From NCBI GenBank assembly GCA_040755995.1, contig JBFMAF010000010.1, forward strand, positions 128,001 to 192,000: DNA of 64,000 nt, read 5' to 3'. The notes under the pieces are model-generated. The model did not search any database. It was given only the letters and a program-made list of their open reading frames with translations, and was not told the DNA's origin. Source of the stretch: Acidobacteriota bacterium. Its GTDB lineage: Bacteria > Acidobacteriota > CAIWXX01. This document shows positions 27,704 through 47,394 of this stretch, in pieces (position 1 is the first letter of the stretch; each line of letters begins with the position of its first letter). The position numbers and the translations under genes are program-made.

Positions 27704-27723
27704 CGGATATCCTCCCCTTGAGA

Positions 27724-31530: not shown

Positions 31531-31933
31531 TGTTGAACTCCCCTTGCTGGCGGGAGTCTAACGCGGGGTCTCCGGTGGAGTCAAACCAATCTCATCTCGT
31601 ATTCTCGCCTGCCTGATGGTGAGCGATCGTTCCCCACCTCGGCGACCAGTGAGCGGGCGCCCCGCCCGGCCACGACCATCAATCTCCGAGCGATTTGTCG
31701 ATCGCACAGGCTTCGATAGTGCGGGCGGACTGCGCAATTGCGAATTCCTCTATCCACAATGCCTCCATGAGCGCGTATGGAAGCGTCAAGAGGGGAGCCT
31801 GATTTGGGTGGCTGGTGTGAAGGTCATCCAAGAGCCGCGCTCATACCACCTCCTGGCCGCGAGAGTCCGACAGCCTCTGGACTCCTGGACAGCCGCCGGA
31901 GGGCAAGTCGCTTGGCGGCGAACGGTGGCGTGG

Positions 31934-32803
31934 TCACAGGGCGCAGCCGGCAATGAGCACGAGGAGGACGCCCGTGTACTGCAGGATCGCAAGGCGGATC
32001 GCCGGCAGCAGCTGGCGAGGGGTGCCAGACGCCCTCATGGCAACGGCCGTCGAGCGCCACGTGAGTGGAAGACAAACGAAGGCCGCCCAGGCCAGCGGCG
32101 GGAGAGTTCCCGAGAGTAGGGCCGCCAAGAGGATGACATGGGCGACTGTCACGACGCAGGCGTACAGCCTGACCGTACTTGCCTGCCCTACCCTCACGCA
32201 GATGTTCCGTTTGCCCACCAGGCGGTCCTGGAAGTAGTCGGGGATTTCGTTGAGTACCGCAATGCCGAACAGGAGGAGACCCGGTATCAGCGAGACCAGC
32301 AACGGGAGCACGTCGATTCGTCTAGTCTGAACGTAGTAGCTCCCCAGTGTCATGAGAGGGCCGTAACAGCAGGCTATGGTGATCTCGCCGTATCCCCGGT
32401 ACGCGAGCCTGAGCGGAGGTCCGAGGTAGAGGAACGCGCCGACGAATCCGGCAAGAGAGAACGCGATGATGGGCATTCCACACCTCAGGGCGAGCAGAGT
32501 GGCAACCAGAAGCGCGCCCGAGAAGGCAATGACGCCAACCTGAAACGTGCGCACCGTCACAGGGACCGGTTCCAACTGGAACACCCTGTCTGTGCCAGCG
32601 CGCCAGTCGAAGTACTCGTTGAAGGCCTCGACCCCGACCAGCACGAGCAGAATTCCGCCCAGACCCACAAGAAACAGGCCGGCATCGAATCGCCTCTCCG
32701 CGTGGAAGGCGGCGGAGCTGCCCAGTGCGTAAGGCAACAGCCCGGCGAAGAGGAGGAACCGGTAGCGGAGGAGCCTCAGCAGCCCGGATAAAGCTCCACC
32801 CAC
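31934..32803 (-). CDS. UbiA-superfamily (MenA-like) membrane prenyltransferase
   Basis: Asp-rich motifs NEYFDWRAGTD and NEIPDYFQD..VGKRN, YLGPPLRLAYRGYGE. Probable GTG start 32803 with GGGAGAGG upstream, overlapping the radical SAM gene. Confidence 0.88.
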   Translation of the reverse strand: MGGALSGLLRLLRYRFLLFAGLLPYALGSSAAFHAERRFDAGLFLVGLGGILLVLVGVEAFNEYFDWRAGTDRVFQLEPVPVTVRTFQVGVIAFSGALLVATLLALRCGMPIIAFSLAGFVGAFLYLGPPLRLAYRGYGEITIACCYGPLMTLGSYYVQTRRIDVLPLLVSLIPGLLLFGIAVLNEIPDYFQDRLVGKRNICVRVGQASTVRLYACVVTVAHVILLAALLSGTLPPLAWAAFVCLPLTWRSTAVAMRASGTPRQLLPAIRLAILQYTGVLLVLIAGCAL

Positions 32804-33771
32804 TTGTTGGCCTCTCCCAGCAGCCTTGGATCTTCCACCACACGTTTGGCGAACGTCACGACCTCCGGCTCTCGCCACGCTCTCTTGTAACGCTGCCAGG
32901 CCTCCGAGAGGGAGTGTCTTCTGAGGTCCGCGCAGACGAAGGGCAATGGACCGATGAGCTTGACCTTGCCATTCGGGATGACCAGCAGGCTCGCAGCGGG
33001 ACAGTCCAGCCGGTATCTGAGCTCCTCGACCACGTCATACGGGTAGTAGTAGATCTTCATCTTGCCGTCGTACTTCGTCTGCTTCTCCTTCAACACATCG
33101 AAGAACTTCTCGTACTCCGTCTCCGTTGGGCACAGCAGATCCCAGTTACGCGCGGCACGCCCTATGCGCATTATCTTGCCCGTGTAGAAACCGTATGTCC
33201 CCATTCTGTAAGCCATCTCGATGACATCACCCGTCTCATGGATGTTGAATTTGGAGGGAACGAAGACGATCTCTGTGGTCACACCAGCCGCCACGAGGTG
33301 GTCGCAGGCCTCAACGACCTTCTCCCAATCCCCATTCGGTCGCATCATTCGGAAGGTCTGCGGGGTTGAACCATCTACGCTCACCTGAACAGACCTGAAT
33401 CCCAGCGCTCCAATCCGGTTCGCCACCTGACGGTCGATCAGGAGGCCGTTGGTTTCCACCTTCAGGCTAGTCCCATGGGCTCGCAGGAACGAGCTGATCT
33501 CGAAGAAGCGCGGGTGGAGAAGCGGCTCCCCACCGGAGATGGCCACGTAAGGGATTCGCAGATCGACGATCTGCTTGAGAAAGAACGTAACCTCTTCGGG
33601 CGTGAGCTCGTCCGAGAACAGGTGGTCTCCCACTTCCTCGCAGCAGTGCAGGCAGGACAAGTTGCACGCGGAGTTCAACTGCCATGCTACGAACAGTGGG
33701 GCATCGAAGTCGCTGTAGCTGGTCCCTGCAATCGCCGCCGCGGGCGCAGCCTGGGTCGGATCGTGTGTCAT
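32776..33771 (-). CDS. Radical SAM peptide maturase, MftC/PqqE-like, with degenerate SPASM/twitch tail
   Basis: CNLSCLHC (CX3CX2C), ISGGEPLL, ETNG, VQVSVDG. FDAPLFVAWQLNSAC resembles the MftC N-terminus. Confidence 0.9.
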   Translation of the reverse strand: MTHDPTQAAPAAAIAGTSYSDFDAPLFVAWQLNSACNLSCLHCCEEVGDHLFSDELTPEEVTFFLKQIVDLRIPYVAISGGEPLLHPRFFEISSFLRAHGTSLKVETNGLLIDRQVANRIGALGFRSVQVSVDGSTPQTFRMMRPNGDWEKVVEACDHLVAAGVTTEIVFVPSKFNIHETGDVIEMAYRMGTYGFYTGKIMRIGRAARNWDLLCPTETEYEKFFDVLKEKQTKYDGKMKIYYYPYDVVEELRYRLDCPAASLLVIPNGKVKLIGPLPFVCADLRRHSLSEAWQRYKRAWREPEVVTFAKRVVEDPRLLGEANKWVELYPGC

Positions 33772-34031
33772 TCCTGTGGCTCCTTCATCATGATGCCGTT
33801 GGTCTGCAGCTTCTGAACAAACTCCTGCACTTCTTCGCGAATTCCCACCGGTTCCTTCCGGTAGACCCGCGAGAGATCCGCAGCTACGGCGTCGACGCTT
33901 TTCCTTTCCTCGAGCAGTCGCAAGATGCGGGCGCCGGTCTCATTGGTCACGAACAACTTCTCGCTGAGCGTCTCGAACACAACAGCACCGAATTTCTCCT
34001 GGCGCACTCTCACGTGCTTTTCGAACTGCAT
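33768..34031 (-). CDS. PqqD/MftB-like RiPP recognition element (RRE) protein, 87 aa
   Basis: VRVRQEKFGAVVFE...LFVTNETGARILRLL...IREEVQEFVQKLQTNGI. GGAGGAGA RBS; ATGA overlap with the radical SAM gene. Confidence 0.85.
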   Translation of the reverse strand: MQFEKHVRVRQEKFGAVVFETLSEKLFVTNETGARILRLLEERKSVDAVAADLSRVYRKEPVGIREEVQEFVQKLQTNGIMMKEPQE

Positions 34032-34063
34032 GTCTCCTCCTCTTCGTATCGAGCCGTTTAGGC

Positions 34064-34128
34064 CAAGCCCGGGCTCCCGCTCGCATGTGAGAGGAAGGGG
34101 TTGATCACAGCCGGGGAGCCCGAGCTTG
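34064..34128 (-). other. Intergenic RNA hairpin between the peptide and RRE genes
   Basis: Minus-strand arms CAAGCUCGGGCUCCC and GGGAGCCCGGGCUUG form 15 bp with one G-U pair. Confidence 0.65.
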
Positions 34129-34141
34129 CACTCGGCGCGTA

Positions 34142-34288
34142 TCACGTGAACCTGATGTAGGGCTGGGCCATCACACGCCCGGACACGTCCTCAAGGGTCG
34201 GTTTCGTCCATTCCAACCCGTTGTCGCCTTCGGGCTCGGATCGCGTCTCTCTCGCCATCGCAACGCTCTCGCATGCTGCATTCTCCAA
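34142..34288 (-). CDS. Putative RiPP precursor peptide, 48 aa: MENAACESVAMARETRSEPEGDNGLEWTKPTLEDVSGRVMAQPYIRFT
   Basis: AAAGGAGGTGA Shine-Dalgarno 5 nt before TTG 34288 (alternative ATG 34258). WxxPxL motif. Lies directly upstream of RRE and radical SAM genes. Confidence 0.8.
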   Translation of the reverse strand: MENAACESVAMARETRSEPEGDNGLEWTKPTLEDVSGRVMAQPYIRFT

Positions 34289-34317
34289 TTCGCTCACCTC
34301 CTTTCCGGCAATGGGAT

Positions 34318-34333
34318 GTGACCACCTGGTCAC
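34318..34333. promoter_or_regulatory. Putative TetR operator 1, upstream of the peptide gene
   Basis: Perfect inverted repeat GTGACCA-CC-TGGTCAC. Confidence 0.75.
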
Positions 34334-34350
34334 TTCGACGACAAAAAAAA

Positions 34351-34992
34351 TCACGCGGAAAGACCCTTCCTCAACACCTCCACGATGTCATCCACAAACT
34401 GCTCCAGTTCCGGCCTCTCCCTGTCCCAGATGCGGCCTGCCGAATCTAGAAAGGCAAGGGCATGTGCCTGCAGAAACCGGTCCATCACTGCATCCAACAG
34501 GAAGACTGCAGCCTTCATGTCGATGTCCTTGCGGATCTCGCCTCTCGCCCTCCCCTGCAGAAGTAAGGAGTGGAGGTACTCCGCCGAGAAGAGACGGATC
34601 TTCTGGAGCAGCTCTTCCCGAAACGGGGCTTCCCTCCCGTATACCATTCTGAGATAGATCCCGTAAATCAAGGGATGACGATCTATGAAGTCAACCCCTG
34701 CCAGAAGAGACTTCCGTATCCTCTCGAAGACCGGATCATCCTTGGTCTCGGCCTTGACCTGCTTGAGCGTCTTGCGCACGAGGTCGACCGCATGGTCGAA
34801 GGTATGGAGAAAGAGACTCCGCTTGTTGTTGAAATACTGGTAGATCGATCCCTTGGCTATCCCCAGGCGGGCTACGATCTCGTTGATGCTGGCGCGCTCA
34901 TAGCCCTTCTCGGAGAATTCCCGGATGGCGGTCTCCAGCACCCTGTTCCGCTTATCCTCGGGGAGATTGAAGAAGGTCTTCCTCGCTTCCAC
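34351..34992 (-). CDS. TetR/AcrR family transcriptional regulator
   Basis: TFFNLPEDKRNRVLETAIREFSEKGYERASINEIVARLGIAKGSIYQYFNNK. Confidence 0.95.
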   Translation of the reverse strand: MEARKTFFNLPEDKRNRVLETAIREFSEKGYERASINEIVARLGIAKGSIYQYFNNKRSLFLHTFDHAVDLVRKTLKQVKAETKDDPVFERIRKSLLAGVDFIDRHPLIYGIYLRMVYGREAPFREELLQKIRLFSAEYLHSLLLQGRARGEIRKDIDMKAAVFLLDAVMDRFLQAHALAFLDSAGRIWDRERPELEQFVDDIVEVLRKGLSA

Positions 34993-35029
34993 GTGTCCTG
35001 CTCAGCGCATGCTCGAAGGGTCAGTCTTT

Positions 35030-35072
35030 GTGACCATGCGGTCATAATACAGCGCGATGAGACACACGTCAA
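35030..35072 (-). promoter_or_regulatory. Sigma70 promoter of tetR with overlapping operator 2
   Basis: Minus strand TTGACG(35072-35067)-17 bp-TATTAT(35049-35044). GTGACC-ATGC-GGTCAT at 35030-35045. Confidence 0.75.
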
Positions 35073-35089
35073 CCCGAACTCTCGCGTTT

Positions 35090-35671
35090 CCATGCCCCGA
35101 CGTGTTCGTTGTCCTCGGTGTTCCAAAGGTGCTGCGCCGCAACTACCTCATATGGGAAGAAGGCCAGGTACCCACGGTGGTTATCGAGGTGACTTCGGCA
35201 TCCTCGCGCGTGGAGGATCTCGGATCGAAGAAGGGCCTCTATGAACAGCTCGGCGTGCGCGAGTATTTCCTCTTCGACCCGCTCGGCGACTACCTCAAGC
35301 CGCAGCTACAGGGTTTCCGACTGACTCCGGATGGTTACATGCGTGTGCTTGGGACGGAGCTTGCTAGTGAAGTGCTGGGGCTGCGCTTGGTCACCGAGTC
35401 GGATGGGCTGAGGCTCTACGACATCCGGACCGGAGCGAAGCTGGAGAAGTACGAGGAGACGATGGAGCGCCTCAGGAGAGAGCGCGAGCGCGCGCAGCTG
35501 GAACAGGCGAGGGCCGACGAGGAGTCGCGGCGAGCCGAGGTGGAGAGAATGCGGGCTGACGAAGAGGCGCGGCGGGCTGAGGAGCAGAGGCTTCGGGCCG
35601 ATCATGCAGAAGCCGAGATCGTCAGGCTGCGAGCGGAGCTGGCCAGGTTGAGATCTGAACTGGGCCGCTGA
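35090..35671 (+). pseudogene. Uma2 (PD-(D/E)xK) family endonuclease lacking its N-terminus
   Basis: PDVFVV...PTVVIEVTS.S...D...KK.LYEQLGVREYFLFDP plus coiled-coil tail. Similarity starts abruptly at the PD motif. Confidence 0.7.
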
Positions 35672-35845
35672 GGCCCGCTCCCCACGCAGATCAAGGGAAC
35701 ATGCGCTAGCACGCTCTGTAATCAGCGACCTGGATGTGCGGAGGCGCGATCCAACGGGCAGGGTCCTCGGCGAGCCGAGCGACCAGCCACCTTGTCGTCA
35801 AATCGACAGATCCGCGGGGGTTCGCACCGGCGCATCAAGAGCCTA

Positions 35846-36808
35846 TCAGCGGATGTCGGCGAGGACATACTTGACAAACTCGCCCTCTCCTGCCTCAGCG
35901 AACCCCATGAAGGCCACCCTATTGCCACGCGCCGCCAGAGGCCAGAATCCATCGGCGGACATGCTCTTGCACTCTCCGCAATTCTCCCTCAACTTGCTCA
36001 AGATCTCGTCGATCAGGCCGTTCTTCCGGACGGAGCCCTCAGGCCCGTAGATGACCACGTCCCCATTCGGGCCCGGGTAGTGTCTCTCGGCGCAAAGGAA
36101 AGATCCGTCACTCATGAAGCCTAGTGATCGGCTGCCCTGCCCGTGAAACTGAAGCGTGGCTGCCCTGCGCACCCCGCCCGCGGGATCCAAATCCACAATC
36201 CGATCGCCGATTCTGTGGCGACCTCTAGGCGGAGGTAGCCCGGGAGAAAGCTCGGGCTCTAGCCAGTTCTCGATTCGACGGTACTCGATCCCTTCTTGAC
36301 CTCCGAGGAAATGCCCTTTACCCTCTGAGTCGACCCAGAAGTCCGTCACTTTGAACGCAGCGGTTTCCGTCCTGCTGATCAAGGTCCCGTCCTTTCTTCG
36401 GGCCTTGTAAACGACATTGTGGTCATCGAAGCAGGCCACAAGGTACCTGTTTCCATCTGCGCCGAAGGCCGGAAATAGGTCAAATGTGCCGTAGTCCTCT
36501 ATCCCCTTAATGCAGTCCGGGGCCGATCCTGTGGTCAGGTCCAGCAACTTCAGTCCGTGCGCAGAAGAACGGGCCGCGGACTCGAGTGCTATGCTTCGAA
36601 CGCTGTTCCCGGGACCTAAAACTCTGGCCACCGGGAAGCGTCCACTTATGGCCAACTCTGTTGGGGAAAGGAAGACGGCGTCCATAACCCCCCGCAAGAT
36701 CTCCCGCTCGTCGGCCACGCTGATGATGGTGACCTGCTGCGCCTGACTCGTCTGCGAGACAACACATGCAAGTGAAGCAATGAACACGCAGATAACGTAC
36801 TCCCTCAT
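35846..36808 (-). CDS. Secreted hypothetical protein, beta-rich
   Basis: GGGAGGAG RBS before ATG 36808, signal peptide ending SQA-QQ; no family recognised. Confidence 0.55.
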   Translation of the reverse strand: MREYVICVFIASLACVVSQTSQAQQVTIISVADEREILRGVMDAVFLSPTELAISGRFPVARVLGPGNSVRSIALESAARSSAHGLKLLDLTTGSAPDCIKGIEDYGTFDLFPAFGADGNRYLVACFDDHNVVYKARRKDGTLISRTETAAFKVTDFWVDSEGKGHFLGGQEGIEYRRIENWLEPELSPGLPPPRGRHRIGDRIVDLDPAGGVRRAATLQFHGQGSRSLGFMSDGSFLCAERHYPGPNGDVVIYGPEGSVRKNGLIDEILSKLRENCGECKSMSADGFWPLAARGNRVAFMGFAEAGEGEFVKYVLADIR

Positions 36809-36915
36809 CGAGGACTCCTCCCTGCCTACCTTGCTATACTGGGATACAATTCGCTTCATGATCCACGACCAGGCTGCAGAAACAAGTCATCTCGATCCAA
36901 ACCCATTCATAGCTG

Positions 36916-37167
36916 TCATTCGGCATCTTTCGGCGCACCCTCTTGATACATCGCCAATGAACATCGGGGGGGCCGGCAGAAACTCATTATGAGAGGACTG
37001 TGGCACGAGGTCGAGCAACAGTCATCACAGTTCCAGGATGTGTCACAACACCTCACTTGATAATACCTCAAGCCCTCTCCGCAGGGCGGCGGTTGATCCC
37101 CGGATAGGGAAGGCAGCGCCATGCCGACTAGCAAAACTGCAGCCGTAATAAGCGATTTCACAGTCAC
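36916..37167 (-). CDS. Small secreted Cys-rich protein, about 83 aa
   Basis: AAGGAGA RBS, GTG start, signal-like KSLITAAVLLVGMALPSLSG, mature part with 9 Cys. Confidence 0.55.
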   Translation of the reverse strand: MTVKSLITAAVLLVGMALPSLSGDQPPPCGEGLRYYQVRCCDTSWNCDDCCSTSCHSPLIMSFCRPPRCSLAMYQEGAPKDAE

Positions 37168-37427: not shown

Positions 37428-38900
37428 TCAGAGCGCGGCGAGGCGGTAGAGCGAATCCAGCGTGAGGGTGACACGTTCGTACAGCCAGGTCGGGTAGATC
37501 CCGAACCAGATGATGAAGAACGTGCCGGCGGCGAGTACGAGCGTCAGAGAAAAGAACGCAGGGGCCGGCTTGATCTCGGCGGTCTCCGGCTTCATGTAGG
37601 CGAAGATCACCGGCCGTATGTAGTAGTAGAGCGACAGGGCCGAGTTCAGAACCGCGAAGACGACCAGATATGTATGCCCTGCCTGGAGCGCCGCCTTGAA
37701 TACGAAGAACTTCCCAAAAAAGCCGGCCGTCGGCGGAATCCCCGCGAGCGACAGCAGGCTCAGGGCCAGCACCGCGCCTATCACAGGGTTCTTGAAGCCC
37801 AACCCGCCGTACCGGTCTATGTCCACCAGCTCCTCGTCCTCCCGCACCAGCGCGATCACTGCCCCAAAGGCGGCGAAGTTCATCGCGGCGTACGCGACCA
37901 GATAAAACATCATCGCGGCCACACCGCCGGGGCTTCCCGCCACGAACGCCATGAGGACGTAGCCTACGTGCGCGATCGAAGAGTATGCGAGCATTCGCTT
38001 GATGTTGTTCTGCCGCAACGCGGCAAAGTTGCCTATCAGCATCGTGCACGCCGAGATGACGACAGCCATGTGGCGCCACTCGACCTCCAGCGACGGGAAC
38101 GCCGTGAGGAGTACGCGGGCCAGGGCGGCGAAGCCCGCCATCTTGGGCCCGACCGCCATGAACGCCGTGACCGGCGTCGGCGCTCCCTGGTAGACGTCGG
38201 GGGTCCACATGTGGAACGGGAAAGCCGAGATCTTGAACAGGAACCCCACAAGGAGCAGCGCAAGGCCGGGGCCTATGTACTGCGGGTGGTGCATCGTACC
38301 CCTGGCGATGCTGTCCGCCACCGCGGGGAGGAAGGTCGTGCCGGTCGCCCCGTATACCATAGCGATGCCAAACAGGAAGAACGACGTCGAGAACGCGCCC
38401 AGCAGGAAATACTTGACGGCGGCTTCGACCGAGTACACATTCTCGCGCTGGAAGCCCGCCATCGCGTAGAGGCCGACCGACAGGATTTCGATCCCGATGA
38501 AAATCACGAGCAGCTCCTTGCTCGTGACGATGCTCATCATGCCGACCACGGAGAACAGCAAGAGGGCAAAGAACTCCCCGTGCAATATCTTCTGTGCCGT
38601 GAGAAACGAAATCGACAACAACACGGCGGCGGCGGCCACGAGCAGGAACACGAACCGGAAGAAGAACCCGTATGAGTCCAACGTGAGCATGCTGTCGTAC
38701 GCCGTGCCCACGGTGCCGGTCAAGCGTAACAGGGCGTACAGCGCAACCAGGATGCCGGCCAGGGAGATGTACGGCGCGTAGCGCCGCGAGAACGCGGGGG
38801 CCATGGCCGCCAGCAGCATCACGGCGACGCCGGTCAGCAGAAGCGTCATCTCCGGACCGAGCGCCGCGAGGCTCACCAGCGGGGGCGAGATTGCGTTCAT
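37428..38900 (-). CDS. nuoN: NADH-quinone oxidoreductase subunit N
   Basis: EAAVKYFLLG, FKISAFPFHMWTPDVYQGAPTP, KRMLAYSSIAH. Confidence 0.95.
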   Translation of the reverse strand: MNAISPPLVSLAALGPEMTLLLTGVAVMLLAAMAPAFSRRYAPYISLAGILVALYALLRLTGTVGTAYDSMLTLDSYGFFFRFVFLLVAAAAVLLSISFLTAQKILHGEFFALLLFSVVGMMSIVTSKELLVIFIGIEILSVGLYAMAGFQRENVYSVEAAVKYFLLGAFSTSFFLFGIAMVYGATGTTFLPAVADSIARGTMHHPQYIGPGLALLLVGFLFKISAFPFHMWTPDVYQGAPTPVTAFMAVGPKMAGFAALARVLLTAFPSLEVEWRHMAVVISACTMLIGNFAALRQNNIKRMLAYSSIAHVGYVLMAFVAGSPGGVAAMMFYLVAYAAMNFAAFGAVIALVREDEELVDIDRYGGLGFKNPVIGAVLALSLLSLAGIPPTAGFFGKFFVFKAALQAGHTYLVVFAVLNSALSLYYYIRPVIFAYMKPETAEIKPAPAFFSLTLVLAAGTFFIIWFGIYPTWLYERVTLTLDSLYRLAAL

Positions 38901-40459
38901 TCTCGATCTCCGACGGCTGCCGTGGTGTGCGGGCCTGTCTCGATGCCGCGCTGTTCGACCTGGACGGGCCTGGACACGGTCGCGCCGTAAAGCAACTGCC
39001 TGGTCGATGCGTGCATGCACCTGGTGAACATCGGTGAGTAGATGCCCATGAGGAAAATGCAGATGATCAGTGGCACGAGTGTGAGCGTCTCGCGGGGGTT
39101 CAGGTCGGGGTGTTTCGAATGCTTTTCCGGTGCTACTCCATAGAGCATGCGCTGGAGGGCCCAGAGCATGTAGACGGCGCTCAGGATGACCCCGGTCGAC
39201 GCGATCACCGCAAACACCGCGCGGCTCTTGAAGGTTCCCATCAGAATCAGGAACTCGCCGACGAACCCATTGGTACCCGGGAGTCCGATGGAGGAGAGCG
39301 CGACGATCAGGAAGAAGGCGGAGTACACGGGCATGACCTTCCAGAGTCCGCCAAGGGCCGCGATCTCGCGCGTGTGCGCGCGCTCGTAGATCACGCCGAC
39401 GATTATGAACAGCGCTCCGGTGGAGACGCCGTGGTTCAGCATCTGATAGATGGCCCCCTCGACCGCCTCCTGATTGAGAGCGAAGATGCCCAGAACGACG
39501 AAGCCGAGGTGTGCGACGGAGCTGTACGCAACCAGCTTCTTGATGTCCTTTTGAATCATGGCCATGAGCGATCCATAGATGATCCCGACAAGCGCCATGA
39601 TCATGATGAAACCTGCGTACTCGTGCGTCGCGTGCGGGAAGAGCGGAAGATTGAAGCGCAGCATGCCGTAGGTGCCCATCTTCAGCAGGATCCCTGCCAG
39701 CAGCACGCTGCCTGCGGTGGGAGCCTCGACGTGCGCATCGGGAAGCCACGTGTGGAACGGGAAGAGCGGCACTTTGATTGCAAACGCGAGGAAGAAGGCC
39801 CAGAAGAGCCAGATCTGCTCGGTCGAGCTAATGTCCAGCGCGTAGAGCCGCAGGATGGAGAACGTCCCATGCCCCTCTTGGGCGGCATACAACTGGTACA
39901 AGTAGATGATGCCCACGAGCATGAGCACGCTGCCGACGAGCGTGTAGATGAAGAACTTGATCGACGCGTAAATCCGTCTCGGCCCGCCCCAGATCCCGAT
40001 CAAGAAGTACATCGGGATCAGCATGCCCTCCCAGAACAGGTAGAACAGAAGCAGGTCCAGGGACACGAAGACGCCGATCATGCCCGTCTCGAGCAGCAGC
40101 ATCATGAAGAAATATTCCCTGACCCGTTCGGTGATCGCAGAGAAAGACGCGAGCACTGAGAGGACCATGAGGAAGGTCGTCAGCAGCACCAGGAACAGCG
40201 AGATGCCGTCGATTCCGAGATCGTAGCTCGTGTTCAGCTGCGGGATCCAGGTGCGGGACTCGCAGAACTGGAAGCCCGGGCGCGTCGGATCGAACCCGAA
40301 GTACAGTTTGAGCGACAGCAGGAAGTCCAGCAAGGTGACGGCGAATGCAAACAGGCGGATCTGTCGAAGGCTCTGGCGTGGGATCAGGATCAGAAGAAAG
40401 GCGCCGAGCAGGGGTACGAACGTGACGGCGGAGAGGAGCGATCCTTGCAGCATGCCCAT
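38897..40459 (-). CDS. nuoM: NADH-quinone oxidoreductase subunit M
   Basis: LGIDGISL, FWEGMLIPMY, KVPLFPFHTWLPDAHVEAPT. Confidence 0.96.
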   Translation of the reverse strand: MGMLQGSLLSAVTFVPLLGAFLLILIPRQSLRQIRLFAFAVTLLDFLLSLKLYFGFDPTRPGFQFCESRTWIPQLNTSYDLGIDGISLFLVLLTTFLMVLSVLASFSAITERVREYFFMMLLLETGMIGVFVSLDLLLFYLFWEGMLIPMYFLIGIWGGPRRIYASIKFFIYTLVGSVLMLVGIIYLYQLYAAQEGHGTFSILRLYALDISSTEQIWLFWAFFLAFAIKVPLFPFHTWLPDAHVEAPTAGSVLLAGILLKMGTYGMLRFNLPLFPHATHEYAGFIMIMALVGIIYGSLMAMIQKDIKKLVAYSSVAHLGFVVLGIFALNQEAVEGAIYQMLNHGVSTGALFIIVGVIYERAHTREIAALGGLWKVMPVYSAFFLIVALSSIGLPGTNGFVGEFLILMGTFKSRAVFAVIASTGVILSAVYMLWALQRMLYGVAPEKHSKHPDLNPRETLTLVPLIICIFLMGIYSPMFTRCMHASTRQLLYGATVSRPVQVEQRGIETGPHTTAAVGDRE

Positions 40460-42345
40460 CAGAACACCCAGATCGACAGCAGCAACACGGCGCCAACGAG
40501 CATTGCGGCGGCGTATGCCTTGAGGTTGCCGGTCTGTATCCTGGCGAGAACCCGGCCGGTCTCCATCGCGCCTGCGGCAATGGAGTCGAGCGTGTGATCG
40601 ATGACGCCCAGGTCGAAGGCCGTGTAGACGCGATCGGAGCCGTTCTTGAGCGGGTCGACGATCGCGGCGTCATACCCCTCGTCCACGAAGTACTTGTTGA
40701 GCAGCACCTTGTAGAGCCGCCGGAATCTCTCGGCAAGGCGCTTCGGCGTATCCGGCTCCTTGATGTAATAGTGGTACGCGAGAAGCCAGCCGATAGCCAT
40801 CACCGCCACAGCCGCGGCGGCCAGCACCTTCGGCAAGGCCCCGTGCACCGCGGCGTGCTCGACCTCGCGATGAGCCCAGATCGAACCGCTGATGAAATGC
40901 GGCAGCGAACTGTACACCCAACCCGCCGCGATACTTCCCAGCGCCAGCAGCATCAGCGGCGTCGTCATGCTCCGCGGCGACTCGTGCGGATGCACAGCAG
41001 GATCGACGCGGCTGACTCCGAAGAAAGTCATGTTCAGCAGCCTGAACATGTAGAAAGACGTCATGGCCGCCGTGCTAATCCCTATCGCCCAGAGCCAGAC
41101 GTTCGTCTCGAACGCCTTCTCGAGTATCAAGTCCTTGCTGTAGAAGCCCGAAAGCCAGGGAAAGCCGGTGATCGCCAGCGTTGCCACTGCGAAGGTCCAC
41201 GTGGTGATCTTGAGCTTCTTGCCCAGACCTCCCATCCTGCGTATGTCCTGCTCGCCGGACATCGCGTGAATCACGCTGCCGGCGCCCAGGAAAAGCAGCG
41301 CCTTGAAGAATGCATGGGTGTACAGATGGAATATCGCCGCGTCGAACGCAGCGACGCCGCAGGCAAGGAACATGTAGCCCAGCTGGCTCACCGTGGAATA
41401 GGCGAGCACGCGCTTGATATCGTTCTGGACCAGCCCGATCGACGCGGCGAAGAAGGCCGTCATCGCACCCACCCAGGCCACCACGAGCAGCACCCAGGTA
41501 GTCCTCGCGTACAGGTCACCCATTCGCGCGATCATGTAGACGCCCGAGGTCACCATCGTCGCGGCATGGATCAGGGCCGAGACGGGCGTCGGGCCTTCCA
41601 TCGCGTCGGGCAGCCAGACGTAAAGCGGAATCTGCGCGGACTTGCCGGTGGCACCTATGAACAGGCACAGTGCGATGAGGTTCAGCAGCAGGCTCCCTTG
41701 CGGCACCTCCTGCACCTGCGCCAGGATGGGCTGTATGTTCAATGTGCCGAAGTTCGCATAGAGCAGCATCATGCCGGCCAGGAAGCCTGCGTCTCCCACC
41801 CGGTTGACTACGAACGCTTTCTTGCCCGCGTCCGATGCCGACTTACGCTCGTACCAGAACCCGATCAGGAGGTACGAACACAGCCCGACGCCCTCCCAGC
41901 CGATGAACAGGACCACGAGGTTCGAACCAAGCACGAGCATCAGCATGGCGAACGTGAAGAGGTTCAAGTACGTGAAGTACCGGGAGTAGTCCCGGTCGTG
42001 ATGCATGTACCCGACCGAGTACACGTGGATCAAGAAGCCCACGCCGGTGACGACCAGGCACATGATCAGGGAGAGCGAATCGAGGCGGAAGGCGAGGTCG
42101 ATCTGCATGCCGCCTGAGTCGATGAATCTGAACAGCGGCGGTCCATCCAGCGGAAGCGCGTGGAACCCGGGCAGCTGCACACCCAGCGTCATCAGCAGGT
42201 ACCCGACCGTGATCAGGAACGAGCCGAACACCGAGAGACACGCCAGCAGCGAGATCGCGGGCCGCGGCATCCTGAGGCCGAGCAGCGCGAGGATCAGTGC
42301 CGAGGCCGCGGGAAATAGCGGGATCAGCGCAACGTATTCGCTCAT
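40459..42345 (-). CDS. nuoL: NADH-quinone oxidoreductase subunit L
   Basis: GWEGVGLCSYLLIGFW, GKSAQIPLYVWLPDAMEGPTPVSALIHAATMV. Confidence 0.96.
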   Translation of the reverse strand: MSEYVALIPLFPAASALILALLGLRMPRPAISLLACLSVFGSFLITVGYLLMTLGVQLPGFHALPLDGPPLFRFIDSGGMQIDLAFRLDSLSLIMCLVVTGVGFLIHVYSVGYMHHDRDYSRYFTYLNLFTFAMLMLVLGSNLVVLFIGWEGVGLCSYLLIGFWYERKSASDAGKKAFVVNRVGDAGFLAGMMLLYANFGTLNIQPILAQVQEVPQGSLLLNLIALCLFIGATGKSAQIPLYVWLPDAMEGPTPVSALIHAATMVTSGVYMIARMGDLYARTTWVLLVVAWVGAMTAFFAASIGLVQNDIKRVLAYSTVSQLGYMFLACGVAAFDAAIFHLYTHAFFKALLFLGAGSVIHAMSGEQDIRRMGGLGKKLKITTWTFAVATLAITGFPWLSGFYSKDLILEKAFETNVWLWAIGISTAAMTSFYMFRLLNMTFFGVSRVDPAVHPHESPRSMTTPLMLLALGSIAAGWVYSSLPHFISGSIWAHREVEHAAVHGALPKVLAAAAVAVMAIGWLLAYHYYIKEPDTPKRLAERFRRLYKVLLNKYFVDEGYDAAIVDPLKNGSDRVYTAFDLGVIDHTLDSIAAGAMETGRVLARIQTGNLKAYAAAMLVGAVLLLSIWVF

Positions 42346-42367
42346 GAGTATCTCAATTGACCGGCCA

Positions 42368-42670
42368 CTAGCCTTTCATCAGGTCCACCCGCTCGCTGTC
42401 CAGGTTCTCCTTGTGGTGGAAAAGGGCGATCATGATGGCGAGCCCAACGGCGGCTTCGGCCGCCGCCACGGTGATGACGAAGAACACGATGATCTGTCCC
42501 GCCACGTCGCCGAGCGATCGCGAGAATGCGATGAGGGCCAGGTTTGCGCCGTTGAGCTGCAGCTCGACGCACATGAAGAGCGTGATGAGATCCCGCCTGA
42601 AGAACACTCCGACGACACCGATCGTGAACAGAACGGCGCTCAGAATCAGGTACCAGTTCAGCGGGATCAT
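42368..42670 (-). CDS. nuoK: NADH-quinone oxidoreductase subunit K
   Basis: MCVELQLNG, VAAAEAAVGLAI. Confidence 0.95.
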   Translation of the reverse strand: MIPLNWYLILSAVLFTIGVVGVFFRRDLITLFMCVELQLNGANLALIAFSRSLGDVAGQIIVFFVITVAAAEAAVGLAIMIALFHHKENLDSERVDLMKG

Positions 42671-43158
42671 AGCTTCTTCTTCGCGAGCATCACCGCGCCC
42701 ACGATCGCGGCCAGTATCAGCACGGAGCTCAGCTCGAACGGGTAGATGTAGTGTGTGAAGAGCTGCGTCCCGATCTCCTCCACCGTCGTCTCCGGCGCCC
42801 GCGAAGCGGCCACCTGTCCCGCCGGGCTCCTTAGCGCCACTACCAGCTCGATGAATAGCATCAGTCCGAAAGCCACTGCGAACGGCAGGACTCGGGGCCT
42901 CTTCTGCGGTTGCTCTCGGGCCGTGAGGTTCAGCAGCATGATGACGAACAGGAAGAGGACCATGATCGCCCCGGCGTATACGATGACCTGGATCGCCGCT
43001 ATGAACGGCGATCCCAGGAGAACGTAGAGTCCCGCAAGAGCGAAGAAGGCCAGCACCAGGCAGAGGCAGCTGTTCACCGCGTTGCGCTGGAATAGCATGG
43101 CCACGGCCGAGGCGACGGCGATGGCGGCCAACAGAAAGAAGGCGGCTATCGCGATCAC
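42667..43158 (-). CDS. nuoJ: NADH-quinone oxidoreductase subunit J
   Basis: QVIVYAGAIMVLFLFVIMLL, YPFELSSVLIL. GTG start overlaps the nuoH stop. Confidence 0.93.
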   Translation of the reverse strand: MIAIAAFFLLAAIAVASAVAMLFQRNAVNSCLCLVLAFFALAGLYVLLGSPFIAAIQVIVYAGAIMVLFLFVIMLLNLTAREQPQKRPRVLPFAVAFGLMLFIELVVALRSPAGQVAASRAPETTVEEIGTQLFTHYIYPFELSSVLILAAIVGAVMLAKKKL

Positions 43159-44213
43159 GCGGCCCTCAGCGAGATCCAGACGGCGGTGGCGAGGATATTG
43201 GCCATGGAGAGCGGGAACAAGAACTTCCATCCAAAGGCCATGAGCTGGTCATATCGAAGACGAGGCAGAGTAGCACGGAGCCACACGTACACGAAGAGCA
43301 GAAAGAGCACCTTCACAACGAACCATCCGAGGCCCACGATCCAGCCGTAGGATGTGCCTGGCGATGCACCCCAGCCGTTCCAGCCGCCGAGGAACAGCGT
43401 CGTGGCCAGGCATGATACACCGATCATATTGATGTATTCGCTCATGAAGAACATCGCGAACTTCATGGAGCTGTACTCGGTGTGGAAGCCGGCCACCAGC
43501 TCCTGCTCGGCCTCGGGGAAATCGAAAGGAGCGCGATTGGTTTCCGCCACGCCGCAGATGAAGTAGAGCAGGAATGCCAGAAACCCCATCGGAGCCTGAA
43601 AGATGAACCACCGCGGGACGAATCCCGCAAAATACCCGGACTGGGCGCTGACGATCGAGTTGAGGCTGAGCGACCCAGCCAGCATCAACACCGCCACAGT
43701 CGATAGGCCGAGGCTGAGCTCGTAACTCGCCATCTGCGCCGTAGACCGCAGCGCTCCGAGCAGCGCGTACTTGCTGTTGCTGCTCCACCCCGCCAGCACA
43801 ATGCCGTACACACCCATGGCCGTAGCCGAGAAGACGATCAGCAGGCCGATGTTCAAGTCGGTGAGCTGCAACGAAAGCGGGGTCTTCACCAAACCGAAGA
43901 GGGTGGTGTCGGGCCCGAACGGGATGACCGAGAACCCAAGGAATGCCGTCGTGATTCCAATGAGCGGCGCGATATAGTAGATGACCTTGTCGGCCTGCGG
44001 CGGCACGAAGTCCTCTTTGAACATCAGCTTGATGGCATCGGCAAAGGGCTGCAGTATTCCGTGCGGCCCCACGTACATCGGCCCGAGCCTGCTCTGGAAG
44101 TGCGCCACCGCCTTGCGCTCGAACCACACCATGAACGGAACACCAGTCATGACCACTGCGAAGACTGCCACGCACTTGACCGCGATGAGGAGAAACTCAA
44201 GAAAGCCCGTCAC
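43155..44213 (-). CDS. nuoH: NADH-quinone oxidoreductase subunit H
   Basis: ERK...QSRLGP, LQPFADAIKL, AETNRAPFDFPEAEQELVAGFHTEYS. Confidence 0.96.
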   Translation of the reverse strand: MTGFLEFLLIAVKCVAVFAVVMTGVPFMVWFERKAVAHFQSRLGPMYVGPHGILQPFADAIKLMFKEDFVPPQADKVIYYIAPLIGITTAFLGFSVIPFGPDTTLFGLVKTPLSLQLTDLNIGLLIVFSATAMGVYGIVLAGWSSNSKYALLGALRSTAQMASYELSLGLSTVAVLMLAGSLSLNSIVSAQSGYFAGFVPRWFIFQAPMGFLAFLLYFICGVAETNRAPFDFPEAEQELVAGFHTEYSSMKFAMFFMSEYINMIGVSCLATTLFLGGWNGWGASPGTSYGWIVGLGWFVVKVLFLLFVYVWLRATLPRLRYDQLMAFGWKFLFPLSMANILATAVWISLRAA

Positions 44214-44713
44214 GCCTTCGCCTCGCCTTGACTCTCAGCCTGCGCCCTCAATTCCTCGATCAGCCGATCGAGCTTCTCGATGTCCAGTCCCTCGTTGTAC
44301 GCTTCCTGATTGACCTGGATGACAGGTGCGGTCCCGCAGGAACCGAGGCATTCTACGGTGGAGAGGGTGAAATGTCCATCAGGCGTCGTCTCGCCTGGCT
44401 TGATACCCAGCCTGTTCTTGAGATGCTCCAGAAGCCGCTCGCCTCCCAGCAGCATACAGCTCACATTCGTGCACAACTGAAGGTGAAAGCGCCCGGCGGG
44501 CTTGAGCCTGAACATCGTGTAAAACGTGATGACCGCGTAAACCTCCACCGGCTCTACGCCCAGCAGGGCCGCGATCCACCGAATCGCCTCCTTGGTGATG
44601 TGCCCCTCCTGCTTCTGCACCAGATACAGCGTCGGGAGAAGCGCCGCGCGCTTCTGCGGATAGCGGCCGAGAATTCTGTCGAATTCCCTCTGGTTCTCAG
44701 CAGTGAATTGCAT
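44210..44713 (-). CDS. nuoE: NADH-quinone oxidoreductase subunit E
   Basis: ITFYTMF and 2Fe-2S ligands CTNVSC and ECLGSC. Confidence 0.93.
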   Translation of the reverse strand: MQFTAENQREFDRILGRYPQKRAALLPTLYLVQKQEGHITKEAIRWIAALLGVEPVEVYAVITFYTMFRLKPAGRFHLQLCTNVSCMLLGGERLLEHLKNRLGIKPGETTPDGHFTLSTVECLGSCGTAPVIQVNQEAYNEGLDIEKLDRLIEELRAQAESQGEAKA

Positions 44714-44746
44714 CTAGTAGTGCAGGGGTCCTTTCTCCCGAAAAAA

Positions 44747-45928
44747 TCAGCGGTCGATTTCACCCAGAACGATATCGAGGCTGCCGATGACGGCGACGAG
44801 GTCGGCCAGCATCGCCCCCTCGGCCATCTTCGACAGAGCCTGGAGGTTCACGAAGCTCGGGGGCCGGATGCGGCATCGGAACGGCTTCGCCGTTCCGTCG
44901 GATACGAGGTAGAACCCGATCTCTCCCTTGGGCGCCTCGACGGGCACGTACGCCTCGCCGGCAGGCGGCCTGACCCCGTTGCAGACGATGAGGAAGTGGT
45001 GGATCAGCGCCTCCATGCTGGTGTGCAGTGTGTTCCTGGGCGGCAGGACGACCTTCGGAGCGTCGGCGATGTATGCGCCGGAAGGGAGCTTCGCGAGCGT
45101 CTGCTCGACGATTCGCACGCTCTGCCGGATTTCGGCGATGCGCACCCGATACCGATCGTACACGTCGCCGTTGGCGCCTACCGGCACTTCGAAGTCGTAC
45201 TGCTCGTACCCGCTATACGGATTGGTCTTTCGGATATCCCACCCGACACCGCTCGCGCGCAGCGCCGGCCCGGAGAGGCCCAGGTTCATCGCGTCGGCCG
45301 CGGAGATCCGGCCGACGCCCACGGTGCGATTCAACCAGATCTTGTTGCGGGTCAGCAGGGTCTCGTACTCGTCCACTCTGGGCTTGAAATAGTCTATGAA
45401 GTCCTTCACGCGTTTGGTGAAGTCTGCTGGTATGTCGGCGGCAAGTCCTCCGATTCTGAAGTACGACACCGTCAGGCGCGCGCCGCAGACCTGTTCGAAG
45501 AGGTCCATGATCACCTCGCGCTCGCGGAAGCAGTACAGCAGCATGGACATCGCGCCGATGTCGATCGCGTGTGTGCCGAGCCAGACCAGGTGGGACGCGA
45601 TGCGCTGGAGCTCGGTCAACATCACGCGGACTGTTTGCGCCCGCGGCGGCACGTCGACACCAACCAGCTTTTCGGTCGACAGCATGAAGGCCAGGTTGTT
45701 GCTCATGGGCGCCAGGTAGTCGAGCCTGTCGGTCATGGTCATGGCCTGGATGTAGGTCTTGTTCTCCGCGGTCTTCTCTATGCCCGTATGGAGGTATCCG
45801 ATGTGCGGTGTCGCTCTCACGATCCGCTCGCCGTCAAGCTCCAGCACGATCCTCAACACGCCGTGGGTGGACGGGTGCTGCGGGCCCATGTTGACGGTCA
45901 TGGTTTCGGTGCGAATCAGGTCAGGCAT
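44747..45928 (-). CDS. nuoD: NADH-quinone oxidoreductase subunit D
   Basis: NMGPQHPSTHGVLR, C-terminal SLDIVLGEIDR. Confidence 0.97.
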   Translation of the reverse strand: MPDLIRTETMTVNMGPQHPSTHGVLRIVLELDGERIVRATPHIGYLHTGIEKTAENKTYIQAMTMTDRLDYLAPMSNNLAFMLSTEKLVGVDVPPRAQTVRVMLTELQRIASHLVWLGTHAIDIGAMSMLLYCFREREVIMDLFEQVCGARLTVSYFRIGGLAADIPADFTKRVKDFIDYFKPRVDEYETLLTRNKIWLNRTVGVGRISAADAMNLGLSGPALRASGVGWDIRKTNPYSGYEQYDFEVPVGANGDVYDRYRVRIAEIRQSVRIVEQTLAKLPSGAYIADAPKVVLPPRNTLHTSMEALIHHFLIVCNGVRPPAGEAYVPVEAPKGEIGFYLVSDGTAKPFRCRIRPPSFVNLQALSKMAEGAMLADLVAVIGSLDIVLGEIDR

Positions 45929-45935
45929 GGGCGCA

Positions 45936-46460
45936 TCAGAAAGGCGGGCCGCCTTCTTCCTTCGGCGTTTGATGGACGTCTTCGAAGAACCCCCGTTCAG
46001 GTTGGTACCCGAGCGGGAAGTCCTTCCGCAGCGGGTGCCCCTCGAAGCCGTCGTACATGAGTATCCTGCGCAAGTCCGGATGGCCGTCCGCCTTGAGGCC
46101 GAACATGTCGAACACCTCGCGCTCGTGCCAGTTGGCGGTCGCGAAGACGCCGGTTGCGGTCGGGTACGACTCGCCGTCCGCCAGCCTCAGGACCAGCAGC
46201 ACGCGCTCGCCGGACTGCACGCACGTGAGGTTGTATACGATCTCGAAGCGCGGCTCTCGCGGGTGGAAGTCGATCGCGAAGAGGTCCGACAGGAATTCGA
46301 ATCCGCACTCACGGGCTGCGCCAAGGAGCTCCACCAGCTTTTCCTTCCTCACTGCATACGCTTCGAAGGCCTTTCCTGCGACGGGCTGCAGTTCGGCGGC
46401 GAGCTCCGCTCCAACGCGTGCTGCGAGCCGGTCTCGGAAGGAGGTGGTCTTCTCGCTCAT
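45936..46460 (-). CDS. nuoC: NADH-quinone oxidoreductase subunit C
   Basis: [13 protein letters not shown]...HPDLRRILM...[10 protein letters not shown]. Confidence 0.95.
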
Positions 46461-46954
46461 GCGACGAGTTTGCCCTTCGACTTGAGGATCTTCTCCTGGA
46501 GTCTGAATATGCCGTCCAGCAGCTGTTCCGGGCGCGGGGGGCAGCCCGGCACGTACACATCCACCGGAACGACGCGGTCGACGCCCTGGACTATGGCGTA
46601 GTTGTTGAATATTCCCCCGCACGAGGCGCACGCGCCCATCGAGATCACCCATTTCGGCTCGGACATCTGGTCATAGATCTGTCGCAGCACCGGAGCCATC
46701 TTCTGCGAGACGCGCCCCGCGACGATCATGAGATCCGCCTGGCGGGGCGAGGCCCGGAACACCTCCGAGCCGAAGCGTGCGATATCGAACCGGCCTGCGC
46801 CAGTGGCCATCATTTCGATCGCGCAGCAGGCCAATCCGAAAGTGACGGGCCATATCGAGCTCTTTCGGGCCCAGTTGATCACCTTGTCGGCTGATGTAAG
46901 CAGAACCTGGTCCTTGACCTCCTCAGCCAACTTATTCAAATCTCGTTCTTTCAT
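46457..46954 (-). CDS. nuoB: NADH-quinone oxidoreductase subunit B
   Basis: [28 protein letters not shown]. Confidence 0.97.
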
Positions 46955-47022
46955 TTCAACACTCTCCCGGGCGCAGCCCGGGACCGACTTTGTACTTCAT
47001 ATTTCAGACTTCACGCTTCTCG

Positions 47023-47394
47023 TCAGTCCCAGTTGAGTGCACCCTTCTTCCACACATAGAGGAAGCCGGTGAACACGATTCCCAGGTAGATAGCCATCTC
47101 CACGAAGACGAACAGGCCCAATGATGGCAGCCTGGCCATATCGGAGTAGATGACCGCCCAGGGATAGATGAAGACGGCCTCCATGTCGAAGAGTATGAAA
47201 AGCATTGTGATCAGGTAGAACTTCACCGAGAAGCGCAGCCGGGCGTCCCCCACCGGTTCCATGCCGCACTCGTATGGCATGTCCTTGCGGGAGGATCGCA
47301 CGCGCGGGCCGAAGAAGTTCGAAATCAGGATCGTGACCGTCCCGAAACCCAGCGCGATCGCGAACAGGACAACGAATGGTACCCAGGGACTCAT
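47023..47394 (-). CDS. nuoA: NADH-quinone oxidoreductase subunit A
   Basis: PYECG, FILFDMEAVFIYPWA, KKGALNWD. Confidence 0.96.
   Translation of the reverse strand: MSPWVPFVVLFAIALGFGTVTILISNFFGPRVRSSRKDMPYECGMEPVGDARLRFSVKFYLITMLFILFDMEAVFIYPWAVIYSDMARLPSLGLFVFVEMAIYLGIVFTGFLYVWKKGALNWD

What the first reader, a model, noticed from the sequence alone, without database searches (positions are those of the whole stretch)
34142..34288. Easily missed 48-aa precursor ending WTKPTLEDVSGRVMAQPYIRFT
Seen: perfect AAAGGAGGTGA SD with TTG start, acidic N-terminal part, WxxPxL motif, short aromatic C-terminus. Known: (Y/W)xxPxL is the RRE-binding motif of lasso leaders, and PqqA begins W-x-K-P. Inference: the RRE binds WTKPTL and the modified core lies within MAQPYIRFT (Tyr44 or Phe47).
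Basis: partly seen in the sequence, partly recalled or inferred. Interest (0 to 1): 0.85.

Follow-up and report, generated by a model that had tools for sequence, protein, structure and literature searches.

The report
Peptide precursor for lipid-tailed electron carrier
This tiny gene is real: its last nine residues barely change across thousands of related sequences, and it sits in a four-gene set with a peptide-binding protein, a radical enzyme and a vitamin-K-type lipid-attaching enzyme, which likely turns the peptide into an undescribed membrane electron carrier for respiration.

Summary
Confirmed. The 48-codon ORF (minus strand, TTG, strong ribosome site) is the precursor of a four-gene cassette: peptide, PqqD-type RRE, radical SAM enzyme without auxiliary-cluster cysteines, MenA-like prenyltransferase. 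64 of 81 related loci carry the peptide (the rest are cut short); all read MAQPYIRFT while codons vary freely. From Trp27 to the stop it aligns gap-free with PqqA, Met40 on the PQQ glutamate and Tyr44 on the tyrosine. The acidic N-terminus is not a family trait. One enzyme clade pairs with Phe at position 44, so Tyr44's hydroxyl is not universally needed. 19 of 48 informative loci lie beside quinone-using complexes (Nqr, Nuo, ETF-QO, NapC, NrfD; about 1% expected), 13 beside a polyprenyl synthase; this genome has complex I but no futalosine or MenB/MenD route. Best reading (0.55): a peptide-derived, prenylated membrane redox carrier; chemistry untested. No paper found in ten searches. The scan noted this cassette before on other DNA (17 findings, at least 10 genomes). 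Added here: Phe variant with a matched enzyme change, TetR operator-like sites, and cultured carriers of the enzyme (Acidianus ambivalens, A. brierleyi).

The parts
34142..34288 (-). Precursor peptide gene, 48 aa; variable N-terminus, W27-x-K-P-x-L recognition stretch, invariant tail M40-A-Q-P-Y44-I-R-F47-T48
34294..34304 (-). Ribosome-binding site AAAGGAGGTGA
34318..34333 (.). Perfect 7-2-7 palindrome GTGACCA-N2-TGGTCAC, likely TetR operator, 13 nt upstream of the ribosome site; only exact copy in the genome
   Evidence: 2 matches at <=2 mismatches in the window, 0.27 expected; 2 of 100 shuffles reach 2; binding inferred
34065..34126 (-). Long stem-loop between precursor and RRE genes, no U-tail; likely stabilises or attenuates precursor mRNA
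   Evidence: -49.3 kcal/mol, z -4.5, 0 of 200 shuffles; z < -2 in only 17 of 56 foldable spacers of related loci
33768..34031 (-). Stand-alone PqqD-family RiPP recognition element, 87 aa; its stop overlaps the radical SAM start
32776..33771 (-). Radical SAM enzyme, 331 aa, SkfB/PqqE fold, CxxxCxxC intact, auxiliary SPASM/twitch cysteines absent
31934..32803 (-). MenA/UBIAD1-like membrane prenyltransferase, 289 aa from the GTG that matches homologue starts; both Asp-rich motifs kept
34351..34992 (-). TetR-family regulator directly upstream; found at this locus only (no hit E<1e-3 in 81 related loci)
35030..35072 (-). Promoter-like TTGACG-17-TATTAT (35072-35044) with a second operator-like palindrome (35030-35045, 2 mismatches) overlapping it
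   Evidence: consensus matches only
37428..47030 (-). nuo (complex I-like) operon on the same strand, ending 3.1 kb upstream of the precursor; context, not part of the cassette (upstream end approximate)
   Evidence: NuoN, M, L, K, D, E, C-family above cut-off

Best explanation
The ORF encodes a conserved precursor peptide of a four-gene cassette that likely makes a peptide-derived, polyprenylated membrane electron carrier, a predicted stand-in for or supplement to quinones. Shown: the gene, its invariant tail, the fixed order peptide-RRE-radical SAM-prenyltransferase, the gap-free register with PqqA, and frequent linkage to quinone-using complexes and polyprenyl synthases. Inferred steps: (1) the RRE holds W27-x-K-P-x-L; (2) the radical SAM enzyme takes a hydrogen from Met40, the PqqA-Glu position, and joins it to the ring of residue 44 as PqqE does (my odds within this model: Met40-to-44 link 45%, chemistry at Phe47/Thr48 30%, both 25%); (3) proteases outside the cassette trim the modified unit; (4) the MenA-like enzyme adds a long prenyl chain; (5) the product carries electrons in the membrane between Nqr-, Nuo- or ETF-QO-type donors and NapC-, NrfD- or Hdr-linked acceptors. 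In this genome a TetR protein likely represses the operon from two palindromes.
For: Invariance typical of a cofactor precursor, not of an arms-race peptide (argument of PMC3023750, passages read): MAQPYIRFT in 64 of 64 loci with the peptide, stop directly after it in 63, in 120 of the 120 listed of 2692 hits and 81 of 98 representative hits. Fixed partners: RRE in 72 of 81 and prenyltransferase in 78 of 81 loci, every miss at a contig end. PqqA register: 22 residues from Trp to stop, 7 identical with Paraburkholderia PqqA, Glu->Met40, Tyr->Tyr44; PqqE links that Glu and Tyr (PMC10114670, passages). Enzyme fold closest to SkfB (Z 26.7, rmsd 2.4, 272 aligned) and PqqE (Z 23.1, rmsd 3.1, 256). 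Prenyltransferase closest to MenA models and UBIAD1 with conserved N-E-x-x-D and N-E-x-P-D-x-x-x-D-x-x-x-G-K motifs. Neighbours within about 4.5 kb: 19 of 48 loci with >=1.5 kb flank have Nqr, Nuo, ETF-QO, NapC or NrfD genes, 13 a polyprenyl synthase, 27 any redox or polyprenyl gene, against about 1% and 0.3% of positions in G000; the links are to five different complexes spread over several well-supported branches of the enzyme tree. G000 (99.8% complete) has two nuo operons, NapC and NrfD homologues but no MqnA/D, MqnC, MqnE, MenB or MenD over cut-off, whereas 247 of 301 genomes of its phylum have MqnA/D (the count includes unpublished G024). G301 and G552 also have NuoH and lack MqnE and MenD. 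No transporter, immunity gene or receptor is part of the core. Enzyme and substrate co-vary: C-C/E after the CxxxCxxC motif goes with Tyr44 (61 CE, 2 CQ, 1 unread of 64 loci), C-L-W with Phe44.
Against: No product, activity or expression is shown. 21 of 48 informative loci have no redox or polyprenyl neighbour, and many positive loci are one Planctomycetota-like clade, so they are not independent; the 1% baseline is one genome and a lower bound. The Phe44 variant has no phenol, so a Tyr-derived quinone cannot be the universal product, and there is no PqqB/PqqC-like oxidase in the cassette. Oxidative coupling normally uses auxiliary clusters (PMC10114670), which this enzyme lacks. I45-R46-F47-T48 is invariant whereas the PqqA tail varies, which the Met40-44 model does not explain. 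G000 has a separate MenA just above cut-off (106.1 vs 102.15 bits), so it may salvage menaquinone precursors; sister genome G029 has NuoH, no tested mqn or menB gene and no cassette, so lacking those routes does not require the cassette. G301 and G552 have no completeness figure. The enzyme/substrate co-variation is one clade, with one pairing read from DNA and two inferred from equal contig lengths. Acidianus has its own thiophene quinones (PMC11750793, passages).
Confidence: 0.55

Rival explanations
1. Two products: the peptide gives a soluble PQQ- or mycofactocin-like cofactor, while the MenA-like enzyme separately prenylates a salvaged naphthoquinone or other small ring.
For: Register with PqqA; best NCBIfam score of the enzyme is MftC (123.8 bits); the prenyltransferase is MenA-like.
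Against: The prenyltransferase follows the radical SAM gene in 78 of 81 loci, often overlapping it, forms its own family only 20% identical to the genome's separate MenA, and no cofactor-dependent dehydrogenase family recurs nearby.
Confidence: 0.15
2. The whole tail is prenylated and stays a lipopeptide: a dedicated bound cofactor, anchor or assembly factor of one respiratory complex, not a freely diffusing carrier.
For: All nine residues are invariant, including the C-terminus; no protease is conserved in the cassette; the Phe44 variant is tolerated.
Against: Neighbours are five unrelated complexes whose common feature is the membrane quinone pool; MenA-type enzymes act on small rings (established knowledge).
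Confidence: 0.15
3. A prenylated signal (ComX-like pheromone) or antimicrobial RiPP.
For: A sensor kinase and response regulator follow the cassette in 15 and 13 loci; lasso-like leader; TetR control here.
Against: No variation of the tail across bacteria and archaea, no exporter or immunity gene; the kinase pair is confined to part of the tree and precedes cytochrome genes.
Confidence: 0.08
4. The cassette is, or descends from, the unknown route to the thiophene quinones of Sulfolobales (caldariella- and sulfolobusquinone), with Met40 giving sulfur and residue 44 the ring.
For: Clustered family enzymes in Acidianus ambivalens and A. brierleyi and one in a Sulfolobaceae genome; these archaea make CQ/SQ (PMC6770870, PMC11750793, passages); a tyrosine origin of the ring is recalled, not read; S. 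acidocaldarius has some PqqD-family gene.
Confidence: 0.05

Closest known systems
PQQ biosynthesis core (PqqA, PqqD, PqqE)
   Same: W-x-K-P start, same distance to the aromatic residue and, for one PqqA, to the stop; stand-alone PqqD; PqqE-like fold.
   Different: Met in place of the cross-linked Glu; Tyr can be Phe; no PqqB/PqqC in the cassette; no SPASM cysteines; a membrane prenyltransferase; enzyme far below the PqqE cut-off (73.9 vs 381 bits).
Mycofactocin (MftA, MftB, MftC, MftR)
   Same: Variable N-terminus with invariant C-terminal residues; RRE nearest MftB (30.1 bits, cut-off 33); enzyme nearest MftC; TetR gene with a palindrome before the precursor as for MftR (PMC8728441, passages); ends with a tailoring transferase.
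   Different: No C-G-V-Y end; C-terminal residue is Thr; MftC score 123.8 vs cut-off 265; prenyl rather than glycosyl tail; TetR 44.5 vs 224.9 bits for MftR and not conserved at other loci.
Menaquinone tailing (MenA/UBIAD1 with heptaprenyl/octaprenyl diphosphate synthase)
   Same: MenA-like enzyme with intact Asp-rich motifs, often followed by a long-chain polyprenyl synthase and next to quinone-using complexes.
   Different: Below all MenA cut-offs (78.4 vs 102.15 for TIGR00751); no naphthoquinone ring pathway; coupled to a peptide module.
Lasso peptides (paeninodin type)
   Same: W-x-x-P-x-L leader stretch and split RRE.
   Different: No leader protease or cyclase in the cassette, no ring-forming core.

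Membership tests
PQQ pathway | Precursor with E-x-x-x-Y | tested here: not met
   Met40 at the Glu position in all 64 loci
PQQ pathway | PqqD-type chaperone | tested here: met
   PF05402 above cut-off; below the PqqD equivalog cut-off, 32 vs 46 bits
PQQ pathway | PqqE with SPASM auxiliary clusters | tested here: not met
   Only one conserved Cys after residue 230; PqqE ligands replaced; TIGR02109 73.9 vs 381
PQQ pathway | pqqB and pqqC beside the core | tested here: not met
   No such recurring neighbour in 81 loci or the window; genome-wide search not run
Mycofactocin | Precursor ending C-G-V-Y (PMC3023750) | tested here: not met
   Ends I-R-F-T; no NCBIfam hit of the peptide to MftA
Mycofactocin | MftC above cut-off with SPASM domain | tested here: not met
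   123.8 vs 265 bits; cysteines absent
Lasso peptide | (Y/W)xxPxL leader stretch with RRE | tested here: met
   Motif conserved; weak match to NF033524 in 16 of 32 members; the motif's binding role is recalled
Lasso peptide | Cyclase and leader protease in the cluster | tested here: not met
   Absent from recurring neighbours; the asparagine-synthase-like gene 18 kb away scores 285 vs 525 for the cyclase model and passes the AsnB cut-off
MenA (DHNA polyprenyltransferase) | UbiA fold with two Asp-rich motifs | tested here: met
MenA (DHNA polyprenyltransferase) | Score above a MenA cut-off | tested here: not met
   All 16 listed models below cut-off
MenA (DHNA polyprenyltransferase) | Acts on 1,4-dihydroxy-2-naphthoate | not testable with these tools
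   needs an assay
RiPP-derived redox cofactor (works-like claim) | Invariant core, fixed enzyme set, no export or immunity genes | tested here: met
RiPP-derived redox cofactor (works-like claim) | Redox-active product used by partner enzymes | not testable with these tools
   only gene-neighbour support
Caldariellaquinone route | Present in all CQ-making Sulfolobales | tested here: inconclusive

The most novel reading that the evidence does not exclude
A fourth kind of route to a respiratory lipid carrier: bacteria and archaea without men/mqn/ubi ring pathways build the head group of a prenylated, possibly sulfur-containing electron carrier from a ribosomal peptide by joining Met40 to Tyr/Phe44 with a radical SAM enzyme that needs no auxiliary cluster; cultured Acidianus species carry the enzyme, so it can be tested now.
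Probability: 0.35. Interest if true: 0.95.

Novelty: new variant of a known kind. Interest (0 to 1): 0.8.

Why it matters
Only PQQ and mycofactocin are established peptide-derived redox cofactors and both are soluble. A prenylated one would be a new class of respiratory carrier and a new origin for a quinone-like head group, would explain complex I, Nqr and ETF-QO genes in sediment anaerobes that lack known quinone routes, and would give a lipid biomarker for them. Whatever the product, the cassette offers two untested chemistries: a PqqE-fold peptide maturase without auxiliary clusters and a UbiA-family enzyme coupled to a RiPP. It is small (three enzymes or helpers and a 27-48 aa peptide) and widespread (2692 precursor clusters), so it is easy to reconstitute.

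Tried and rejected
Complex prediction of radical SAM + RRE + SAM + peptide 19-48: no verdict (score 0.91, control 0.72); not used as evidence. RNA runs: none was listed, so translation and expression are untested. Pfam and NCBIfam gave no family for the peptide. Rfam: 0 matches in 31000-37500. No second precursor copy in G000. Cassette not found in the other 400 genomes of G000's phylum searched, including both other genomes of its class; 2 of 301 in G301's phylum, 1 of 151 in G552's order, so a statistical test of exclusion against quinone routes was not possible. No close relative in plasmids at E<1e-40 or viral contigs. The genome-collection scan was run with a single sequence and gave one locus. 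The palindrome does not mark a wider regulon: 1 exact, 2 one-mismatch sites in the genome. The hairpin is not universal (17 of 56). The careful tree did not finish; the quick tree was used. The binomial values printed treat loci as independent, and the second uses uncounted numbers; neither is used. The PqqD control for S. acidocaldarius could not exclude the caldariellaquinone idea. Ten literature searches: 0 papers for QPYIRFT, 0 for the two term sets joining radical SAM, RRE/PqqD and UbiA, 0 for six Acidianus accessions; the others returned only PQQ, mycofactocin, NQR or quinone reviews (listings and abstract starts seen). Subscription journals, bioRxiv supplements and unsearched supplements could hold a description. 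One paper looked up by a recalled id was unrelated and one was not held. Rejected: chance ORF, lasso peptide, acidic leader as a family feature.

Full report
Observation. The ORF is on the minus strand, 34288 to 34142, starts with TTG and gives 48 residues ending WTKPTLEDVSGRVMAQPYIRFT. AAAGGAGGTGA sits at 34294-34304. Only 2 of 469 short ORFs with a good ribosome site in this genome have the [WY]xxPxL stretch at a similar distance from the stop. The N-terminal 26 residues have net charge -5, but 55 of 59 homologues are net positive there, so acidity is local.

The gene is real. Using the neighbouring radical SAM enzyme as bait I fetched 81 loci (1 genome contig; the best 80 of 239 metagenome loci). 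64 carry the peptide 297-912 nt upstream of the enzyme match; the 17 without have at most 552 nt of upstream DNA. All 64 read MAQPYIRFT; 63 stop there and one at a contig start reads on. In 58 distinct DNA versions every degenerate codon of the nine residues varies silently and no residue changes. A profile found 2692 protein clusters (all 120 listed end in the same nine residues) and 98 representatives at 50% identity, of which 81 end MAQPYIRFT, 4 MAQPFIRFT, and the rest are single variants, fragments or chance hits. Source names on enzyme hits span Planctomycetota, Omnitrophota, Nitrospirota, Thermodesulfobacteriota, Aminicenantia, Lentisphaeria, Bacillota, Chloroflexota, a Nitrososphaerales archaeon and Sulfolobaceae. 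The distribution is patchy: 1 of 401 genomes searched in this phylum.

Anatomy. Downstream on the same strand come a PqqD-family RRE (33768-34031), a radical SAM enzyme (32776-33771) and a MenA/UBIAD1-like prenyltransferase (31934-32803), with overlapping or near-touching ends. The RRE is present in 72 and the prenyltransferase in 78 of 81 loci, every miss at a contig end. The enzyme folds like SkfB and PqqE (model pLDDT 90; Z 26.7 and 23.1) but has one conserved cysteine after residue 230, and the PqqE auxiliary ligands are replaced. Two loci carry a second paralogue with changed residues. The prenyltransferase keeps both Asp-rich motifs and is closest to UBIAD1 yet below every MenA cut-off. 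In this window only, a TetR gene precedes the peptide, with a perfect palindrome at 34318-34333 and a second copy over a promoter-like site at 35030-35072, recalling MftR and its operator before mftA (PMC8728441, passages). A strong hairpin follows the peptide gene (z -4.5) but only 17 of 56 related spacers do the same.

Where the chemistry is likely to happen. From Trp27 the peptide aligns without gaps: 22 residues to the stop and 7 identities with Paraburkholderia PqqA, Met40 on the glutamate and Tyr44 on the tyrosine that PqqE joins (PMC10114670, passages). This favours a Met40-to-44 link. Two facts complicate it. An intact cassette in G552 has a 27-aa precursor with Phe at 44; its enzyme belongs to a separate clade (100% support, quick tree) in which C-E after the cluster motif becomes L-W, whereas 61 of 64 Tyr-type loci have C-E. 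Two further Phe-type pairings rest on equal contig lengths only (P0370 with P0326, P0456 with P0313). This suggests residue 44 sits near the SAM site, from one clade-level change, and shows the phenol is not always needed.

What the product is likely for. Of 48 loci with at least 1.5 kb of flank (33 shorter ones left out), 19 have genes of quinone-using complexes within about 4.5 kb (Nqr-like operon, Nuo membrane arm, ETF-QO, NapC/NirT cytochrome, NrfD), 5 more have other redox genes (Hdr, Flx/NqrF-like, Fe-S), 13 have a long-chain polyprenyl synthase, 27 have at least one of these and 21 none. About 1% of positions in G000 lie that near such genes and 0.3% near a polyprenyl synthase (a lower bound from one genome). 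The loci are related, but the links involve five different complexes on several branches, and in the window a nuo operon ends 3.1 kb upstream. G000 is 99.8% complete and lacks MqnA/D, MqnC, MqnE, MenB and MenD over cut-off; its five UbiA-family genes are heme O synthase, a DPPR-synthase-like protein, an unassigned one, a borderline MenA and this one. 247 of 301 genomes of its phylum have MqnA/D (including unpublished G024). Against this, the separate MenA allows salvage, and sister genome G029 has NuoH with neither a tested route nor the cassette.

Mechanism, best reading (0.55). RRE binds the W-x-K-P-x-L stretch; the radical SAM enzyme modifies the invariant tail, most likely linking Met40 to residue 44; outside proteases trim it; the MenA-like enzyme adds a polyprenyl chain; the product serves as a membrane electron carrier. 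Only the genes, conservation, register and neighbourhood are shown. Open problems are the missing electron sink for an oxidative coupling, the source of redox activity in the Phe type, and the missing protease. Rivals: independent soluble cofactor plus quinone salvage (0.15), bound lipopeptide (0.15), signal or antibiotic (0.08), thiophene-quinone route of Sulfolobales (0.05).

A handle for experiments. Family enzymes occur as clustered paralogues in cultured Acidianus ambivalens (QGR21945.1, QGR21947.1) and A. brierleyi (AWR93811.1, AWR93813.1); A. infernus shows 47-aa fragments. I could not read their DNA context, so precursor and prenyltransferase there are unconfirmed.

Comparison and novelty. 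It works like PQQ and mycofactocin in design but fails their defining features, and is not a lasso system or a MenA by score (membership table). No curated family covers the peptide. Ten literature searches found no description; I read passages, not whole texts, of PMC10114670, PMC3023750, PMC8728441, PMC8120280, PMC10821996, PMC6770870 and PMC11750793. The scan itself has noted the cassette in 17 findings on at least 10 other genomes with a similar reading; my reading was written before that look-up and those notes are not independent support. The Phe variant word met no earlier finding. Verdict: real, undescribed RiPP cassette; new variant of the peptide-derived cofactor kind, categorically new if the product proves to be a membrane carrier; interest 0.8.

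Noticed in passing
L070:8962-9975 and L071:8951-9967: Second radical SAM paralogue between the first enzyme and the prenyltransferase, with changes at otherwise fixed residues (A29P, E46Q, S261D, G274N, P275S); suggests a second modification step in some lineages.
   Followed up: partly
P0385, P0418, P0396, P0453: Acidianus ambivalens and A. brierleyi have two, possibly three, clustered paralogues; A. infernus only a 47-aa fragment.
   Followed up: partly
P0337, P0333/P0351: Divergent precursors ending MAKPYFYLRG and VLRPYIRFT; the second lacks Met40 and is on record on 97 contigs, which would count against Met40 as the universal radical site if its cassette is intact.
   Followed up: no
L099:7808-8935 and L013:5852-7210: M48 (CAAX prenyl protease-like) peptidase genes near the cassette in two loci; candidate trimming enzymes or coincidence.
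   Followed up: no
L044:1963-7432 and about ten similar loci: Nqr-like six-gene operon whose first subunit carries a 4Fe-4S dicluster domain and scores below NqrA and RnfC cut-offs; an Nqr/Rnf intermediate directly upstream of the peptide gene.
   Followed up: partly
L020:11563, L076:7916, G000:C47 (L085): A separate, more canonical MenA-like gene near or in addition to the cassette (the L076 frame looks broken).
   Followed up: partly
G000: C12, C33, C44, C50: Six further PqqD-family genes in this genome, several near radical SAM genes; other peptide systems likely.
   Followed up: no
window 37428-47030: nuo operon with NuoE but no NuoF/G seen between NuoE and NuoH, and no nuoI between nuoH and nuoJ; a second nuo operon lies on contig C17.
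   Followed up: no
window 25547-31530: DUF2339 membrane protein (1268 aa) and DUF3999 protein pair downstream of the cassette; not seen at related loci.
   Followed up: no
G029: Sister genome with NuoH but no MqnA/D, MqnE, MenB or cassette match: its membrane carrier is unexplained.
   Followed up: no
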